Part shown: one piece after another, positions 38,945 to 50,615 of the stretch
Layout: each line of letters starts with the position of its first letter
How positions within the stretch are numbered: position 1 is the first letter of the stretch
Origin: the human T2T-CHM13v2.0 reference genome, Homo sapiens
NCBI RefSeq assembly: GCF_009914755.1
Contig: NC_060936.1
Strand: one strand, 5' to 3'
DNA: 64,000 bases
Notes under the pieces: model-generated
Told to the model about the DNA's origin: nothing
The model's input: the letters and a program-made list of their open reading frames with translations, nothing else
Databases searched by the model: none
Program-made: the position numbers and the translations under genes

Positions 38945-40209
38945 ATGTTTTTAAGTTGTCAATAAAAATTGTATATATTTATCATGTATAATATGTTGTT
39001 TTGAAATACAGTATGTATACGTTGTGGAATGACTAAATAGAGCTAATTAGCATATGCATTACCTCACATACTTATCATTTTTCTATGGCGAGAATGCTTA
39101 AAATCTACTCTGTTAACCGTTTTCAAGAATGCAACATGTTCTTATTAACTATGGTCACCACATTGTACAATAGATTATGGTACATCACTTGAACTTATTA
39201 CTCCAATCTACCGGAAATTCTGTATCCTTTAACCAACATTTTCCCATAACCACTATTCTATTTTCTACCTCTATGAGTTCAACTTTTTTAGATTCCACAC
39301 ATAAGTGAGATCATGAGGTATTGACATTTCCATGCCTGGTTTATTTCACCTAACATAACGTCCCCTAGGTTCATCCATATTGTAAAAAAATGACAAGATT
39401 TCCTTCTTTCTTCAGGCTGAATAGAATTCTATTGTGTATGTTTGTGTGTATATACACATACCACATATATATAAATGTGGTATGTGGTATGTGTATACAC
39501 ATTTATATATATGTGGTATGGGATACATACCACAATTTTTAAATCCATTCATCCATTGATGGACACTTAGATTGGTTCCATGTCTTCGCTATTGTGAATA
39601 ATGCTGCATTGAACATGAGAATACAAATATCACTTCAAAATACTAATTGCATTTCCTTTGGATATATACCCAGTAATGGAATTCCTAGATCATATGGTAG
39701 TTCTTTATTTAATTGAGGAACATCCATTCTGTTTTTCATAATGACTGTATTAATTTACATTCCCACCAACAGGTGGATTACCTTTTATTCACATCCTCTC
39801 CAACATGTATCTTTTGTCTTTTTGATAATAGCCTTCCTAATAGGTGTGAGGTGATATATCCTTGTGGTGTGAGTTTACAAATTTCCATCATAATTAGTAA
39901 TATTGAGCATTTTTTCTTATATCTTTTGGCCATTTGTATGTTTTCTTTTGAGAAATGTCTATTCAGATCCTTTGCTCTTTTTTAACTGACTTGTTTTCTC
40001 ACAACTGAGTTGAGTTCCTTATGTTTTGGAACATAATCCCTTAACAGATATACAATCTGCAAATATTTTCTCCCATTCTGTAGGTTGTCTCTTCACTCTG
40101 TTGATTGTTTCCTTGGCTGTGCAGAAACTTTTTAGTTTGATGTAATTTCATTTTTCTATGTTTGCTTTTGTTGTCTGTGCTATTAAAGTCATATTCAAAA
40201 AAGTCATTG
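38945..40209 (-). mobile_element. L1MA (MA6-like), 3' segment
   Basis: 3' UTR gagctaattagcatatgcattacctcacatacttatc; ORF2 remnants; interrupted at 40209. Confidence 0.88.
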
Positions 40210-41067
40210 TAAGGGATATGAACAGACACTTCTCAAAAGAAGACATTTATGCAGCCAAAAAACACATGAAAAAATGCTCACCATCACTGGCCATCAGAGA
40301 AATGCAAATCAAAACCACAATGAGATACCATCTCACACCAGTTAGAATGGCAATCATTAAAAAGTCAGGAAACAACAGGTGCTGGAGAGGATGTGGAGAA
40401 ATAGGAACACTTTTACACTGTTGGTGGGACTGTAAACTAGTTCAACCATTGTGGAAGTCAGTGTGGCGATTCCTCAGGGATCTAGAACTAGAAATACCAT
40501 TTGACCCAGCCATCCCATTACTGGGTATACACCCAAAGGACTATAAATCATGCTGCTATAAAGACACATGCACACGTATGTTTATTGCGGCACTATTCAC
40601 AATAGCAAAGACTTGGAACCAACCCAAATGTCCAACAATGATAGACTGGATTAAGAAAATGTGGCACATATACACCATGGAATACTATGCAGCCATAAAA
40701 AATGATGAGTTCATGTCCTTTGTAGGGACATGGATGAAATTGGAAATCATCATTCTCAGTAAACTATCGCAAGGACAAAAAATCAAACACTGCATGGTCT
40801 CACTCATAGGTGGGAATTGAACAATGAGAACACATGGACACACGAAGGGGATCATCACACTCTGGGGACTGTTGGGGGGTGGGGGGAGGGGGGAGGGATA
40901 GCATTAGGAGATATACCTAATGCTAAATGACGAGTTAATGGGTGCAGCACACCAGCATGGCACATGTATACATATGTAACTAACCTGCACATTGTGCACA
41001 TATACCCTAAAACTTAAAGTATAATAATAATGAAATAAAATTAAAAATAAATAAATAATTAAATAAA
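40210..41067 (+). mobile_element. 5'-truncated L1PA3-like element (ORF2 C-terminal end, 3' UTR, A-rich tail)
   Basis: Open ORF2 C-terminus [11 protein letters not shown]...[18 protein letters not shown]...SLIGGN*; 3' UTR gcattaggagatatacctaatgctaaatgacgag. Confidence 0.96.
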
Positions 41068-41787
41068 TCCATTTTGTAGAGAAGAAAGCCGAAGTACAGA
41101 GAAGTGCAGGTAGTAAGTGATGAAGAAGAACTCTCACGCAGGCAGGCAGACTTGGAATGCCACTTTCCACCACCATGTGGACATATACAGAAAATACTCC
41201 TCTGCCTTTTTTGCCCCAACTGCAAACATTTCATTCAATTTTATATTTCCCTGTATTTTACTCAAGTGAAAATTAATCTGTAAAAAATAATACTCACAGC
41301 TGTTCAATCTGCTCAAATTCTTTCCCCTCATCTGTGTAACAAAAGAAGAATTTGACTATGAAGTTGGTTTGTCATTTTTATGGAACATATATGCTCAATT
41401 AAACCTCCTTCCTAAGTAAGAAAGTACTATGCTGTTTCTCTTGTTTGGAATGAAGGAGAGACATGCTACCTTAAACACCTACACCTCGTTTATCTGCACT
41501 ACAGACCTTATCTGCATTTCTGATCAAACATAGTTTAGTGGCCTGATATTTTCAAAAACATGACTGCTTAGTTTGTCATTATTTAAATCATTAAAAATTT
41601 AGTATAAAATCAGGAAAGAATACAGGATGTAAGGTCAATTTTCTCGAGGATTACTGCTTTATCAACCTGTAACCCATCAGGCACAGGCTGCAAAAATAGG
41701 AAATGACAGGATGGTCTCTCTTTAATGAGAACTCTGGAATGGTTAATAAAATATTTTTTAAAATGATAAAAACAAAAACAAAAACAT
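41068..41787 (+). other. L1 3'-transduced genomic segment with its own polyA signal and tail
   Basis: Non-L1 sequence lying inside TSD aaaaaagtcattg (40197-40209 and 41788-41800); AATAAA at 41745-41750; A-rich tail 41768-41787. Confidence 0.88.
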
Positions 41788-41800
41788 AAAAAAGTCATTG

Positions 41801-43160
41801 CCCAGCCCAATGTAATGGAGCTTGTTTTCTTCTAGTAGTTTTTCAATTTCAGGTCTTAATTTAAGTCTTTAATCCATTTTTAATTGATTTCCATGTGTGG
41901 TATGTGATGACAGTCGAATTTCATTCTTCTACATATGGATATCTACTTTTCCCAGCACCATTTATTGAAGAGGCTGTTCTTTCCTCATTCTGTGTTCTTG
42001 ACATCTTTGCCAAAGATCAATTGACCATAAGTGCATGAATTTATTTCTGTATCTCTTTTCTGTTCTATTGGTCTATGTGTTTGTTTTCATGGAAATATCA
42101 CAGTGTTTTGATTACTGTAGCTTTACAGTATATTTTGACATCAGGAGTATGATGTCTCCAGCTTTGTTCCTTTTGCACAAGATTGCTGTGCTATTCGAGG
42201 TCTCTTGTGCACTCCATACAAATTTTAAAATTGTTTTATGTACTTCTGTGAAAAATGTCCTTGCAATTTTGATAAGGATTGCATTCAATCTGTAAATTAC
42301 TGTAGATAGTATGTACCTGTTAACACCATTAACTCTTTCATTCTATCAACATGGGATATCTTTTCATTTTTTGTGCCTTTAGTTTTATCAATATTTTATT
42401 GTTTTCAGTATACAGGTCTTTCATCTCCTCAATTAAATTTATTCCTAAGTATTTTTTGTAGCTGTAGCTATTTTAAATTGGATTGTTTTCTTGATTTCTT
42501 TTTCTGATAGTTCATTGCTAGTGTATAGACATGCTACTGATATTTGTGTGTTGATTTTATATCCTGCAACCTTACTGATTTTGTTTATTAGTTCTAACTG
42601 GTTTGGGTGGAATTTTTAGGGTTTTCTACATATGAATTCATATCATCTGCCAACAGGGACAATTTAGCTTCCTCCCCTTCTAGTTGGATGCCTTTATTTT
42701 TCTCCCTTACCTAATTGCTGTGTGTAGTAATTCCACTACTATGTTGAATATAAGTGATGAGAAAGTATTCTTGTCTTGTTCCTGATCTTGCAGGAAAAGC
42801 CTTCAACTTTTCACCATTGAATATGATATTAGCTGTGGGTTTGTCATATATGGCCTATATTGGGTTGCAGTACATTCCTTCTATACCAAATTTGTGGGTT
42901 TTCATCGTGAATGGATGTTTAATTTTATCAAAGGCTTTTTCTGCGTCTATTGAAATGAGTTTGAAAGTATTCCTTACTCTTCAATTTTTGGGGAGATGTT
43001 TGAGAAGGATTTGTATTTGTTCTTCTTTAAATGTTTAGTAGAATTCAGCATTGAAGTCATCAGGTCCTGGGCTTTTCTTTGATGGGAATCATTCTACTGT
43101 TGATTCAGTCTCATCACTCATTATTGGTCTCTTCAGATTTTTTATTTCTTCGTGATTTAA
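41801..43160 (-). mobile_element. L1MA (MA6-like), continuation
   Basis: Resumes in register after the TSD (gtcattgcccagcccaatgt...); degenerate antisense ORF2. Confidence 0.88.
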
Positions 43161-48091: not shown

Positions 48092-50615
48092 GAAATAAGC
48101 ACATTGTGAAGAATGAGATATCCATCTCCTCAAGCATTTATCCCTTGAGTTGCAAACAATCCAGTTACTCTTTATTTTAAAATGTATATTTATTATTAAC
48201 TGTAGTCACCCTGTTTTACTAGCAAATAGTAGGTCTTATTTATCCTTTCTATTTTTTATACCCATTAACCATCCCCTTCTCCCCTCCAGCCCCCCACTAC
48301 TCTACTCAGACTCTGGTAACCATCTTTCTACTCTCTATGTCCATGAGTTCAGTGGTTTGGTTTTTAGATCCCACAAATAAGTAAGAATGTGTGATGTTTG
48401 ACTTTCTGTGCCTGGCTAATTTCACCTAACATAATGATCTCCAGTTCCATCCATGTTGCTGCAAATGACTGAATTTCATTCTTTTTTATGGCTGAATAGT
48501 ACTCCATTGTGTATATGTACCACATTTTCTTTATCCATTCATCTGTTGATGGACACTTAGGTTGCTTTCAAATCTTAGCTATTGTGAACAGTGCTGCAAC
48601 AAACATAGGAATGCAGATCTCTTCCATATGCTGATTTCCTTTCTTTTGTGTATATACCCAGCAGTGGGATTGCTGGATCATATGGTAGCTCTACTTTCAG
48701 TTTTTTGAGGAATTTCCAAACTGTTCTCCATAGTGGTTGTACTAATTTATATTCTCATCAACAGTGTACACCTTTTTTACACATTCTTGCCAACATTTGT
48801 TATTGCCTGTCTTTTGGATATAAGCCATTTTAACTGGAGTGAGATGATATCTCCTTTTAGTTTTGATTTGCATTTCTCTGATGATCAGTGATGTTGAGTA
48901 TCTTTTCATATGCCCATTTGCCATTTGTATGTCTTCTTTTGAGAAATGTCTTTTCAAATATTTTGCTCATTTTCATTGGATTATTAGATTTTTTCCTATA
49001 GAGTTGTTTGAACTCCTTATATATTCTGGTTATTAATCCTTTGTCAAATAGGTAGTTTGCATACATTTTCTCCCATTCTGTGGGTTGTCTCTTCACTTTG
49101 TTGATTGTATCCTTTGCTGTGCCGAAGTTTTAACTTAATGTGATCCCAGTTGTCCATTTTTTTTTGGTTGCCTGTGCTTGTGGGGTATTACTCAAGAAAT
49201 AACCCATATGCCGGGGCCAAAAGACATTGCCCATACCAATGTCCTGCAGAGTTTCCTAGATGTTTTCTTATAGTACTTTCCTGGCTTGAGGTCTGAGATT
49301 TAAGTCTTTAATTCATTTTTATATGATTTTTGTATATGGTGAAAGACAGGGGTCTAGTTTCAGCCTTCTGCATATGTATATCCAGTTTTTCCCAGCACCA
49401 TTTATTAAAGAGATGTCTTTTCCCCAATGTGTTCTTGGCACCTTTGTTGAAAATGAGTTCACTGTAGGTATATGGATTTGTCTCTGTGTTCTCTATTCTT
49501 TCCATTGGTCTTGTGACTGTTTTTATGACAGTATCATGCTATTTTGGTTATTATAGCTCTGTAGTATAATTTGAAGTCAGGTTATGTAATTCCTCCAATT
49601 TTGTTCTTTTTGCTTAGGATAGCTTTGGCTATTCTGGGTTTGTTGTGGTTCCATGTAAGTTTTAGGGTTTGGTTGTTTTTTTTTTTTTTTTTTGTATTTC
49701 TGTGAAAAATGTCATTGATATTTTGATAGGGATTGCATTGAATGTGTAAATTTCTTTGGGTAGTTTGGATATTTTAACAATATTAATCCTTCCAATCTCT
49801 GAACATGGTATGTTTTTGTTCTTTTCATTTTTGGGAGTGTTCTCTTCCATTTTCTTCACCAATATTTTACAGTCTTCATTATAGAGATCCTTCACTTTTT
49901 TGGTTAATTTCTAAGTGTTTAATTCTATGTGTGGCTACTGTACATGGAATTTTTTTTTTCAGATTGTTCACTGTTAGCATACAAAAATGCCAGTGGTTTT
50001 TGCATGTTGATTTTGTATCCTGCAACTTTACTGACTTTGTTTATCGGTTCTAATAGTTTGCCTTTAGAGTCTTTTAGTTTTTCCAAATATAAGACTGTAT
50101 CATCAGCAAACAGTGATAATTTGACTTCTTCCTTTGCAGTGTGGATGCCCTTTATATCCTTCTCTTGTCCGATTGCTCTAGCTAGGATTTCCAGTACTAT
50201 GTTGAATAACAGTTGTGACAGTGCACATCCTTGTCGTGTTCTAAATCTTAGAGGAAAACCTTTCTGTCTTTTCTCATTTAGTATGATACTAGCTGTGGGT
50301 CTGTCGTAGATGGTTTTTATTATGCTGATATATTTTCCTTCAATATCCAGTTTTTTGAGAGTTTTTATCATGAAGAGATGTTGAATTTTATCAAATGTTT
50401 TTTCAGCGTCATTTGAGAGGATCATATGGTTTTTGTCCTTCAGTCTGTTGATATGATGTATCATATTGATTGATTTGCATATGTGGAACCATCTTTGCAC
50501 CCCAGGGATTAATCCCACTTGGTCATGATGAATGATCTTTCTAATGTATTGTTGATTTGGTTTGGTGGTATTTTGTTGAGGATTTTTGAATCAATATTCA
50601 TCAGAGATATTGGCC
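48092..50615 (-). mobile_element. L1MA1/2-like 3' UTR and ORF2 (RT to C-terminus)
   Basis: ORF 49925-50518 has RT motifs (TRQGCALS...VKLSLFADD); 3' UTR ctcaagcatttatccc. Confidence 0.92.

What the first reader, a model, noticed from the sequence alone, without database searches (positions are those of the whole stretch)
40197..41800. L1 3' transduction: ~700 bp of foreign genomic DNA moved here with an L1PA3-like element
Seen: an old L1MA is split, and the 13-bp TSD aaaaaagtcattg sits at 40197-40209 and 41788-41800. The second copy is ~720 bp past the young L1's tail, not next to it. Between them lie the L1 3' end, a first A-rich tail (to ~41067), non-L1 sequence, AATAAA (41745-41750) and a second A-rich tail (41768-41787). 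The target reads 5'-TTTT/GA on the minus strand, a typical L1 endonuclease site. Established: read-through of the weak L1 polyA signal mobilises downstream DNA. Inference: 41068-41767 is a tag copied from the donor locus. It starts with MIR-like sequence, so the source L1 may sit in a MIR.
Basis: partly seen in the sequence, partly recalled or inferred. Interest (0 to 1): 0.8.

Follow-up and report, generated by a model that had tools for sequence, protein, structure and literature searches.

The report
Ordinary L1 3' transduction, parent missing
A truncated young L1 element carried about 705 bases of DNA copied from an embigin-gene duplicate near the chromosome 1 centromere into an old L1 on chromosome 12, a well-known process, and the parent L1 is no longer present at the donor site.

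Summary
An exact 13-bp duplication (40197-40209 and 41788-41800) brackets four parts. They are a 5'-truncated young L1 (ORF2p residues 1073-1275 plus 3' UTR), an A/T-rich internal tail, 705-706 bp of non-L1 DNA (41064/5-41769), and a second short A-rich tail starting 17-19 nt after AATAAA.

In other copies of the old minus-strand L1 host, the two flanks are contiguous and carry the 13-mer once.

The non-L1 tag has exactly two paralogues in this genome: chr1:121574708-121575412 (98.0%) and chr5:51221188-51221896 (96.8%). They lie in a duplicon of at least 13 kb that holds an embigin (EMB) exon, and the tag is antisense to it. Both paralogues run on past the tag on both sides, lack the terminal tail, and have no L1 at the junction. 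The junction reads TT|AAAT, an L1-endonuclease-type site, inside a dispersed repeat. Site patterns (6 window-unique, 7 chr1-unique, 16 chr5-unique) place the donor in the chr1 lineage.

Best reading, about 0.8: a classic L1 3' transduction whose parent L1 was never fixed or was lost. No sibling copies were found. Rivals that I could not exclude are an RT template-switch chimera and a separate retrocopy that landed in the L1 tail. Ape orthologues could not be checked. This is an ordinary instance of a known mechanism, of low interest.

The parts
39750..40196 (-). Left flank: old L1 (ORF2 3' part), host of the insertion
   Evidence: 39778-39981(-) matches ORF2p 1072-1111. The search gave 8997 first-look genomic candidates, and the 40 scored were 76-79% identical.
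40197..40209 (.). 5' copy of the 13-bp target-site duplication AAAAAAGTCATTG
   Evidence: Exact pair. The 13-mer is single-copy in other copies of the old L1. It is preceded by TC, so the minus strand reads TTTTTT/GA.
40210..41030 (+). 5'-truncated young L1: end of ORF2 (to 40820) plus 3' UTR
   Evidence: Matches ORF2p 1073-1275, E 1e-133, 190 of 203 identical. The closest genomic L1 copies are 97-98% identical (40 scored of 3373 candidates).
41031..41064 (+). Internal A/T-rich tail. I interpret it as the parent L1's genomically encoded tail.
   Evidence: Read directly. L1 homology to other copies ends at about 41025, and donor homology starts at 41064/5.
41065..41769 (+). Transduced tag, copied from the EMB-duplicon paralogue on chr1 (antisense to the EMB-like exon)
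   Evidence: 98.0% identical to chr1:121574708-121575412(-) and 96.8% to chr5:51221188-51221896(+).
41745..41750 (+). AATAAA polyadenylation signal used by the read-through transcript
   Evidence: It is conserved in both paralogues, and donor homology ends 17-19 nt downstream of it.
41770..41787 (+). Terminal A-rich tail (AAACAAAAACAAAAACAT), absent from the donors
   Evidence: At this point the donors read TCTAAGTGAAAG instead.
41788..41800 (.). 3' copy of the 13-bp target-site duplication
41801..42342 (-). Right flank: the same old L1, upstream part of its ORF2
   Evidence: 42112-42342(-) matches ORF2p 809-873. It is contiguous with the left flank in other copies.

Best explanation
This is a single L1 retrotransposition event that carried 3' flanking DNA, that is, a 3' transduction.

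Inferred: a full-length L1 once sat on the minus strand of the chr1 pericentromeric copy of the EMB duplicon. Its 3' end would have been at chr1:121575412|411, inside a MIR-like repeat. Inferred: Pol II read through the L1's own weak poly(A) signal and through its genomic A-tail, continued for 705 nt, and was cleaved 17-19 nt after the next AATAAA.

Shown by anatomy: the poly(A) RNA was reverse-transcribed by target-primed reverse transcription at a TTTTTT/GA nick in an old L1 on chr12. The cDNA was 5'-truncated at ORF2 codon ~1073. A 13-bp target-site duplication was made.

Shown: no parent L1 is present at either extant paralogue in this complete genome. Inferred: the parent was a polymorphic insertion that was never fixed, or it lay in a paralogue that has since been lost.

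Dating, inferred from about 0.9% divergence per lineage and a recalled neutral rate of about 1e-9 per site per year: roughly 8-10 Myr ago. That is later than the chr5-to-chr1 duplication.
For: (1) One exact 13-bp TSD brackets L1 + tail + tag + tail. The TSD is single-copy and the flanks are contiguous in 6 of 11 other copies of the host L1.

(2) The tag ends at a canonical poly(A) site followed by an A-tail that the donors lack. This means the copy was made through RNA.

(3) The L1 and the tag have the same orientation. An internal A/T-rich tail lies between them, and the non-L1 part lies 3' of the L1. This is the transduction layout.

(4) Donor paralogues were found. Only 3 loci in the genome carry the tag and only 2 carry its flanks. 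chr1 and chr5 are colinear over 12.9 kb at 95.5% across the junction, with no scar.

(5) The donor junction reads TT|AAAT. It is within one mismatch of TT|AAAA in the orientation needed for an L1 whose tail abuts the tag. Background frequency is 47 of 3689 and 52 of 3693 positions locally, and 1512 of 99994 in 100 kb.

(6) There is no AG before the junction, so splicing from a distant L1 is unlikely.

(7) Site patterns over 709 columns are 6 window-unique, 7 chr1-unique, 16 chr5-unique and 1 all-different. The source is therefore in the chr1 lineage, after the duplication.

(8) The mechanism is established. The passages I read in the Hoyt et al. preprint and in PMC9311842 describe read-through of a weak L1 poly(A) signal. 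Hoyt et al. list 183 top-confidence L1 3' transductions in this same assembly.
Against: No parent L1 is present at the donor junction in either paralogue, and there is no third paralogue.

The nearest L1 3' ends are unsuitable. On chr5 they lie 9 kb or more away. On chr1 a chr1-specific L1 of about 6.1 kb lies 8.3 kb away, points away from the tag, and is only 94.9% identical to the window's L1.

No sibling insertions carry the same tag. So nothing shows independently that an active L1 ever sat there.

The junction is ambiguous by one base, because a T is shared. The internal tail is full of AATAAA-like motifs, which is odd for a signal that was read through, although such T's can arise after insertion.

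The orthologous ape and monkey loci were not examined.
Confidence: 0.8

Rival explanations
1. A single-event template-switch chimera. ORF2p began reverse transcription on a polyadenylated non-L1 RNA from the chr1 EMB duplicon (minus strand), copied 705 nt, and then jumped onto the poly(A) end of an L1 mRNA. In this model no L1 ever sat at the donor.
For: Both donor paralogues lack an L1 at the junction. The tag starts with AAAT, which could pair as microhomology with a poly(A) tail. L1 chimeras formed by template switching or RNA ligation are documented (PMC13174262, passages read). A chr1-specific L1 of about 6.1 kb has its 5' end facing the tag 8.3 kb upstream, so an antisense-promoter transcript through the tag is conceivable (speculative).
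Against: In the catalogued chimeras the partner RNA sits 5' of the L1, because reverse transcription starts on L1 RNA (introduction passage). Here the order is reversed, which would require trans-mobilisation followed by a switch. The TT that precedes AAAT is not explained by microhomology. No other retrocopy of this RNA exists in the genome. No transcript data were available to show that the RNA exists.
Confidence: 0.07
2. Two separate events. First a truncated L1 inserted with the 13-bp TSD. Later a 5'-truncated retrocopy of a polyadenylated chr1 transcript inserted into that L1's A-tail, in the same orientation, leaving A-rich TSDs that can no longer be recognised.
For: A-tails are favoured targets for same-orientation insertions (recalled, not tested). 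The sequence just before the tag and the sequence after its tail are both A-rich low-complexity, so a short second TSD cannot be excluded. There is no L1 at the donor.
Against: No second TSD can be recognised. The model requires retrocopying of an unspliced RNA antisense to a gene, followed by a hit on a target of about 35 bp. The endonuclease-like TT|AAAT at the donor boundary would then be a coincidence of about 1.5%. Only 18 nt lie between the cleavage site and the outer TSD, which leaves little room for a poly(A) tail, a second TSD and the rest of the L1 tail.
Confidence: 0.08
3. A DNA-level duplication, or a chance repeat. In this view the 13-mers are coincidental and the tag arrived by segmental duplication.
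For: A second exact 13-bp repeat pair, unrelated to this one, occurs in the same 4.5 kb (family D19). Exact 13-mers are therefore not vanishingly rare in this AT-rich DNA.
Against: The 13-mers sit exactly at the L1 truncation point and exactly after an A-tail that follows AATAAA. The flanks rejoin precisely in other copies of the host L1. The tag's homology stops at a poly(A) cleavage site.
Confidence: 0.01

Closest known systems
L1 3' transduction (Moran 1999, Goodier 2000 and Pickeral 2000 are recalled and seen only in reference lists; the mechanism as described in Hoyt et al. bioRxiv 10.1101/2021.07.12.451456 and in PMC9311842 was read as passages)
   Same: The layout is TSD - 5'-truncated L1 - internal tail - unique 3' flank ending at a downstream AATAAA - poly(A) - TSD. 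The event is interchromosomal. The tag length of about 705 bp is within the 7-997 nt range reported in PMC9311842.
   Different: The parent L1 is absent from the donor in this genome. The donor exists as two paralogues of a segmental duplication, and pipelines often discard such cases (PMC9311842 states that it removed transductions located in segmental duplications).
Orphan 3' transductions and non-reference source elements (Solyom 2012, seen only as a citation)
   Same: The source L1 is not present in the reference at the donor locus. The donor is recognised only through the tag.
   Different: In an orphan transduction the L1 part is wholly truncated away. Here about 820 bp of L1 and its tail are retained.
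L1 chimeric insertions such as U6/L1, Alu/L1 and mRNA/L1 (Law and Burns 2026, PMC13174262, passages read)
   Same: One TPRT event with TSDs joins L1 and non-L1 sequence in the same orientation.
   Different: Those chimeras carry the partner at the 5' side of the L1. Here the partner is 3' of the L1, comes after an internal A-rich tail, and carries its own poly(A) signal.

Membership tests
L1 3' transduction | One pair of target-site duplications brackets the L1 plus the non-L1 segment, at an L1-endonuclease-type site | tested here: met
   Exact 13-bp TSD. It is single-copy in other copies of the host repeat. The site reads TTTTTT/GA on the minus strand.
L1 3' transduction | An L1 3' end with its own A-rich tail is followed, in the same orientation, by unique sequence | tested here: met
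   ORF2p 1073-1275 plus 3' UTR, then the A/T-rich stretch 41031-41064, then the tag.
L1 3' transduction | The unique segment ends at a poly(A) signal and cleavage site, with a non-templated A-tail abutting the 3' TSD | tested here: met
   AATAAA at 41745-41750. Donor homology ends at 41769. The tail at 41770-41787 is absent from the donors.
L1 3' transduction | A paralogous donor locus exists that continues beyond the segment on both sides | tested here: met
   chr1 at 98.0% and chr5 at 96.8%. The two are colinear with each other over 12.9 kb.
L1 3' transduction | The donor segment begins at an L1 insertion site, either occupied by the parent L1 or empty with an endonuclease-type motif | tested here: inconclusive
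   There is no L1 at the junction in either paralogue. The empty site reads TT|AAAT, a motif level reached by 1.3-1.5% of background positions. Past occupancy is inferred, not shown.
L1 3' transduction | Sibling insertions share the same tag (supportive, not required) | tested here: not met
   Only the window, chr1 and chr5 carry the tag in this genome. The tool states that its counts are lower bounds.
L1 template-switch / RNA-ligation chimera (U6/L1 type) | The partner RNA is fused to the 5' side of the L1 sequence | tested here: not met
   The partner lies 3' of the L1, behind an internal tail. The definition comes from PMC13174262.
Stand-alone processed retrocopy | TSDs directly flank the retrocopy | tested here: not met
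   The 5' TSD is separated from the tag by 855 bp of L1 and tail. No second TSD is recognisable.

The most novel reading that the evidence does not exclude
The insertion is a 'reverse-order' L1 chimera. ORF2p first copied the 3' end of a polyadenylated RNA that is antisense to the EMB duplicate. That RNA may have been driven by the antisense promoter of the chr1-specific L1 8.3 kb upstream. ORF2p then switched onto an L1 mRNA's poly(A) tail. In this reading no L1 ever sat at the donor, and some fraction of 'parentless' 3' transductions would really be template-switch products.
Probability: 0.07. Interest if true: 0.4.

Novelty: new member of a known kind. Interest (0 to 1): 0.15.

Why it matters
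It matters little beyond annotation. The tag records an L1 progenitor in the EMB duplicon on chr1 that was once active and is now absent. It shows that about 705 bp of unmasked 'unique' DNA on chr12 is a retro-copied paralogue, which is relevant to read mapping. It also gives a relative time marker: tag versus chr1 differ by 2.0%, while chr1 versus chr5 differ by 3.4-4.5%, so the transduction came after the chr5-to-chr1 pericentromeric duplication. It is also a worked example of a parentless transduction whose donor lies in a segmental duplication, a class that published pipelines tend to filter out.

Tried and rejected
- **Third paralogue carrying the parent L1.** I searched the genome with the 697-bp upstream flank and the 699-bp downstream flank of the chr1 donor. 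Only chr1 and chr5 matched, apart from a local internal repeat.
- **Nearby L1 as the source.** On chr5, L1 3' ends lie at 51212239 (87.5% identical), 51200780 (94.3%) and 51241178 (95.0%). None abuts the tag start at 51221188/9. On chr1, a chr1-specific L1 of about 6.1 kb (about 121583671-121589807, + strand, 94.9%) points away from the tag, and a 78-bp L1 stub at 121583100-177 is also on the + strand. I rejected all of them as the read-through source.
- **Splicing from a distant L1.** Rejected, because the donor junction is preceded by TT and not AG.
- **Pfam.** Pfam gave no hit on the young or the old L1 ORF fragments (0 of 10 proteins). I used PDB sequence matches instead. One old-L1 fragment, 40041-40232(-), matched nothing.
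- **Rfam.** Rfam found no family at gathering threshold over 39000-43000.
- **Is the tag inside an EMB intron?** An EMB exon lies 8.4 kb away (residues ~63-128, identical to PDB 7yr5_B). A Pfam screen of 103 minus-strand ORFs at lower coordinates found no further Ig exon. Intronic status is left open.
- **MIR identity.** A genome search with 211 bp across the donor junction gave only two weak unrelated hits. One spans the junction (79%, query 70-139). The other overlaps it by only 6-7 bases (89%, query 92-138). No repeat library was available.
- **Is this instance in print?** The searches found no mention of it. Supplementary tables of the Hoyt et al. preprint are closed and may list it. Szak 2003 and Pickeral 2000 are not held.
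Full report
**1. Observation**

The 13-mer AAAAAAGTCATTG is exact at 40197-40209 and 41788-41800. With one mismatch allowed there are 3 hits in the window. None of 100 dinucleotide shuffles gave that many. The third hit, at 49705, is a one-mismatch copy elsewhere.

Between the two 13-mers lie five features:
- 40210 to about 41030 is a young L1 3' end. The open frame 40146-40820(+) matches human LINE-1 ORF2p residues 1073-1275 at E 1.3e-133, with 190 of 203 residues identical and no stop.
- About 41031-41064 is an A/T-rich stretch.
- 41064/5-41769 is non-L1 sequence.
- 41745-41750 is AATAAA.
- 41770-41787 reads AAACAAAAACAAAAACAT.

The two bases before the first 13-mer are TC, so the nicked minus strand reads TTTTTT/GA.

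**2. The duplication is a real TSD in an old L1**

The flanks belong to an old L1 on the minus strand. 42112-42342(-) matches ORF2p 809-873 (E 3.5e-13). 39778-39981(-) matches ORF2p 1072-1111 (E 4e-6). By my arithmetic this puts the insertion near ORF2 codon ~990 of the old element.

The left flank has 8997 first-look candidates in the genome, and the 40 that were scored are 76-79% identical. I aligned both flanks to the 11 non-self loci returned:
- In 6 of them (L012, L013, L014, L016, L017, L020) the left flank ends and the right flank begins at the same place to within 2 bp, with the 13-mer present once. In L016 and L017, for example, window 40209 and window 41800 both map to subject base 1495.
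- Two more (L019, L015) are colinear with indels of 15 and 67 bp.
- Three (L011, L018, L021) show no adjacent right-flank match.

So everything from 40210 to 41787 entered as an insertion that duplicated 13 bp. Pfam gave nothing on any of the 10 ORF fragments, and one old-L1 fragment had no PDB match. The subfamily names L1MA and L1PA3 were not tested, because no repeat library is held here.

**3. The donor**

A search of the window's own complete genome with 41072-41767 returned three places: the window itself, chr1:121574710-121575404 on the minus strand (98%), and chr5:51221196-51221894 on the plus strand (97%).

Local BLAST of 39000-43000 against both loci matched only 41064-41769. Identity was 98.0% over 706 columns for chr1 and 96.8% over 709 columns for chr5. 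Nothing in either locus matched the young L1.

Reading the loci shows that chr1 and chr5 continue to resemble each other on both sides of the tag. Upstream they read ...GGTGAGTACTATTATT|AAATCCATTTTG. Downstream they read ...AAATGATAA|TCTAAGTGAAAG, where the window instead has its A-tail.

The 697-bp upstream flank and the 699-bp downstream flank of the chr1 copy occur only at chr1 and chr5, at 96% and 94% identity to each other. There is no third paralogue.

Over 30 kb, chr1:121570274-121583098 is colinear (inverted) with chr5:51226331-51213504 at 95.5% over 12.9 kb, with no break at the junction. Both paralogues are therefore clean empty sites.

**4. What the donor locus is**

An 86-aa minus-strand frame at chr5:51230331-51230588 has weak Ig-domain hits. 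Over the residues that match, it is identical to Embigin residues ~63-128 (PDB 7yr5_B, E 1.5e-38). A 94%-identical open copy lies at chr1:121565821-121566078 on the plus strand.

The tag lies 8.4 kb (chr5) and 8.6 kb (chr1) from that exon and is antisense to it. So the donor is the EMB gene region and its unprocessed pericentromeric duplicate. By recall this duplicate is EMBP1 at 1p11.2. PMC10778729 names EMBP1 and L1s near it but gives no coordinates. Whether the tag is intronic was not settled.

**5. Which paralogue was the donor, and when**

Over the 709 aligned columns of the tag, 6 differences are unique to the window, 7 are unique to chr1, 16 are unique to chr5, and 1 column differs in all three. 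With roughly clock-like change, the window copy is sister to the chr1 copy. The transduction is younger than the chr5/chr1 duplication: window versus chr1 differ by 2.0%, while chr1 versus chr5 differ by 3.4% in the tag and 4.5% over 12.9 kb.

About 0.9% change per lineage, at a recalled neutral rate of about 1e-9 per site per year, gives roughly 8-10 Myr. A slower rate would double that figure. The young L1's closest genomic relatives are 97-98% identical (40 scored of 3373 candidates). This is compatible with the same age and with a subfamily around L1PA2-PA4, but it does not name one.

**6. Mechanism**

The tag ends 17-19 nt after a conserved AATAAA and is followed by an A-tail that the donors lack. 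It was therefore copied from a polyadenylated RNA.

The tag sits 3' of an L1 3' end, in the same orientation, behind an internal A/T-rich tail, inside one TSD at an endonuclease-type site. This is the textbook anatomy of L1 3' transduction: read-through of the weak L1 poly(A) signal to the next signal downstream. The mechanism is described in passages of Hoyt et al. and PMC9311842.

The missing piece is the parent. In this genome neither paralogue has an L1 at the junction. Two observations still point to a former L1 there:
- The junction reads TT|AAAT in exactly the orientation required for an L1 whose tail abuts the tag. It is within one mismatch of TT|AAAA. Only 47 of 3689 (chr1), 52 of 3693 (chr5) and 1512 of 99994 (chr5, 100 kb) positions do as well. 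The junction is ambiguous by one base.
- The junction is not preceded by AG, so splicing from a distant L1 is unlikely.

Nearby L1s were checked and rejected. On chr5 the nearest same-strand L1 3' end is 9 kb upstream and only 87.5% identical. On chr1 a chr1-specific L1 of about 6.1 kb, 8.3 kb away, points the other way and is 94.9% identical.

I therefore read the parent as an insertion that was active for a time and was never fixed, or that lay in a paralogue since lost. No sibling tags exist in this genome.

**7. Rivals**

(a) *Template switch.* Reverse transcription would begin on a non-L1 poly(A) RNA and jump to an L1 mRNA. This explains the empty donor. However, the order is the reverse of the catalogued chimeras, which carry the partner 5' of the L1 (PMC13174262). 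It also leaves the TT unexplained and needs an RNA for which I have no evidence.

(b) *Two events.* A retrocopy would have landed in the tail of an existing L1. This cannot be excluded, because A-rich TSDs would be unrecognisable. But there is no positive sign of it, only 18 nt are available after the cleavage site, and the donor motif would be a coincidence.

(c) *Chance, or a DNA-level duplication.* This is refuted.

I put 0.8 on transduction, 0.07 on (a), 0.08 on (b) and 0.01 on (c). The remaining 0.04 is left unassigned.

**8. MIR**

The repeat-like sequence runs unbroken across the junction in both paralogues. One unrelated locus (chr1:177.8 Mb, 79%, query 70-139) matches across the junction, which lies at query 98|99. 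A second (chr4, 89%, query 92-138) overlaps it by only 6-7 bases. The name MIR rests on recall.

**9. Comparison and novelty**

This is an ordinary member of a well-described class. Hoyt et al. report 183 top-confidence L1 3' transductions in this same assembly. PMC9311842 reports transduced lengths of 7-997 nt, and states that it discards candidates located in segmental duplications, which may be why a case like this one is under-reported.

I found no mention of this instance in print.

Interest is low. Two points lift it slightly above routine: the parent is absent from a complete genome, and the donor is an EMB duplicon, which gives a relative date for the chr5-to-chr1 duplication.

Noticed in passing
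L043-L045 (chr1:121583671-121589807, + strand): A chr1-specific L1 of about 6.1 kb is inserted in the EMB duplicon. It sits between blocks that map to chr5:51213002 and chr5:51213016, which implies a TSD of about 15 bp. Its 3' end is 94.9% identical to the window's L1. Its 5' end faces the tag donor 8.3 kb away. A 78-bp L1 3'-end stub lies at chr1:121583100-121583177.
   Followed up: partly
L032:9331-9588 (chr5:51230331-51230588, -) and chr1:121565821-121566078 (+): An embigin exon (residues ~63-128, identical to PDB 7yr5_B) lies on chr5, with a 94%-identical copy on chr1 that is still open. The chr1/chr5 duplicon spans at least 30 kb at about 93-96% identity, with small rearranged blocks at chr1:121564198-425 and chr1:121570061-272.
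   Followed up: partly
L036:8318-9558 (chr5:51269318-51270558, -): Minus-strand ORF fragments match retroviral Gag_p30, a zinc knuckle and aspartyl protease. This is an endogenous retrovirus remnant beside EMB. I only observed it.
   Followed up: no
window 49705-49717: AAAAATGTCATTG is a one-mismatch copy of the TSD sequence. It is probably the homologous position in another old L1 copy in the window, but I did not check.
   Followed up: no
window 39075-39087 and 40148-40160: A second exact 13-bp direct repeat (TCATTTTTCTATG) lies within the old L1 flank (family D19). It shows that exact 13-mers alone are not proof of a TSD in this AT-rich DNA.
   Followed up: no
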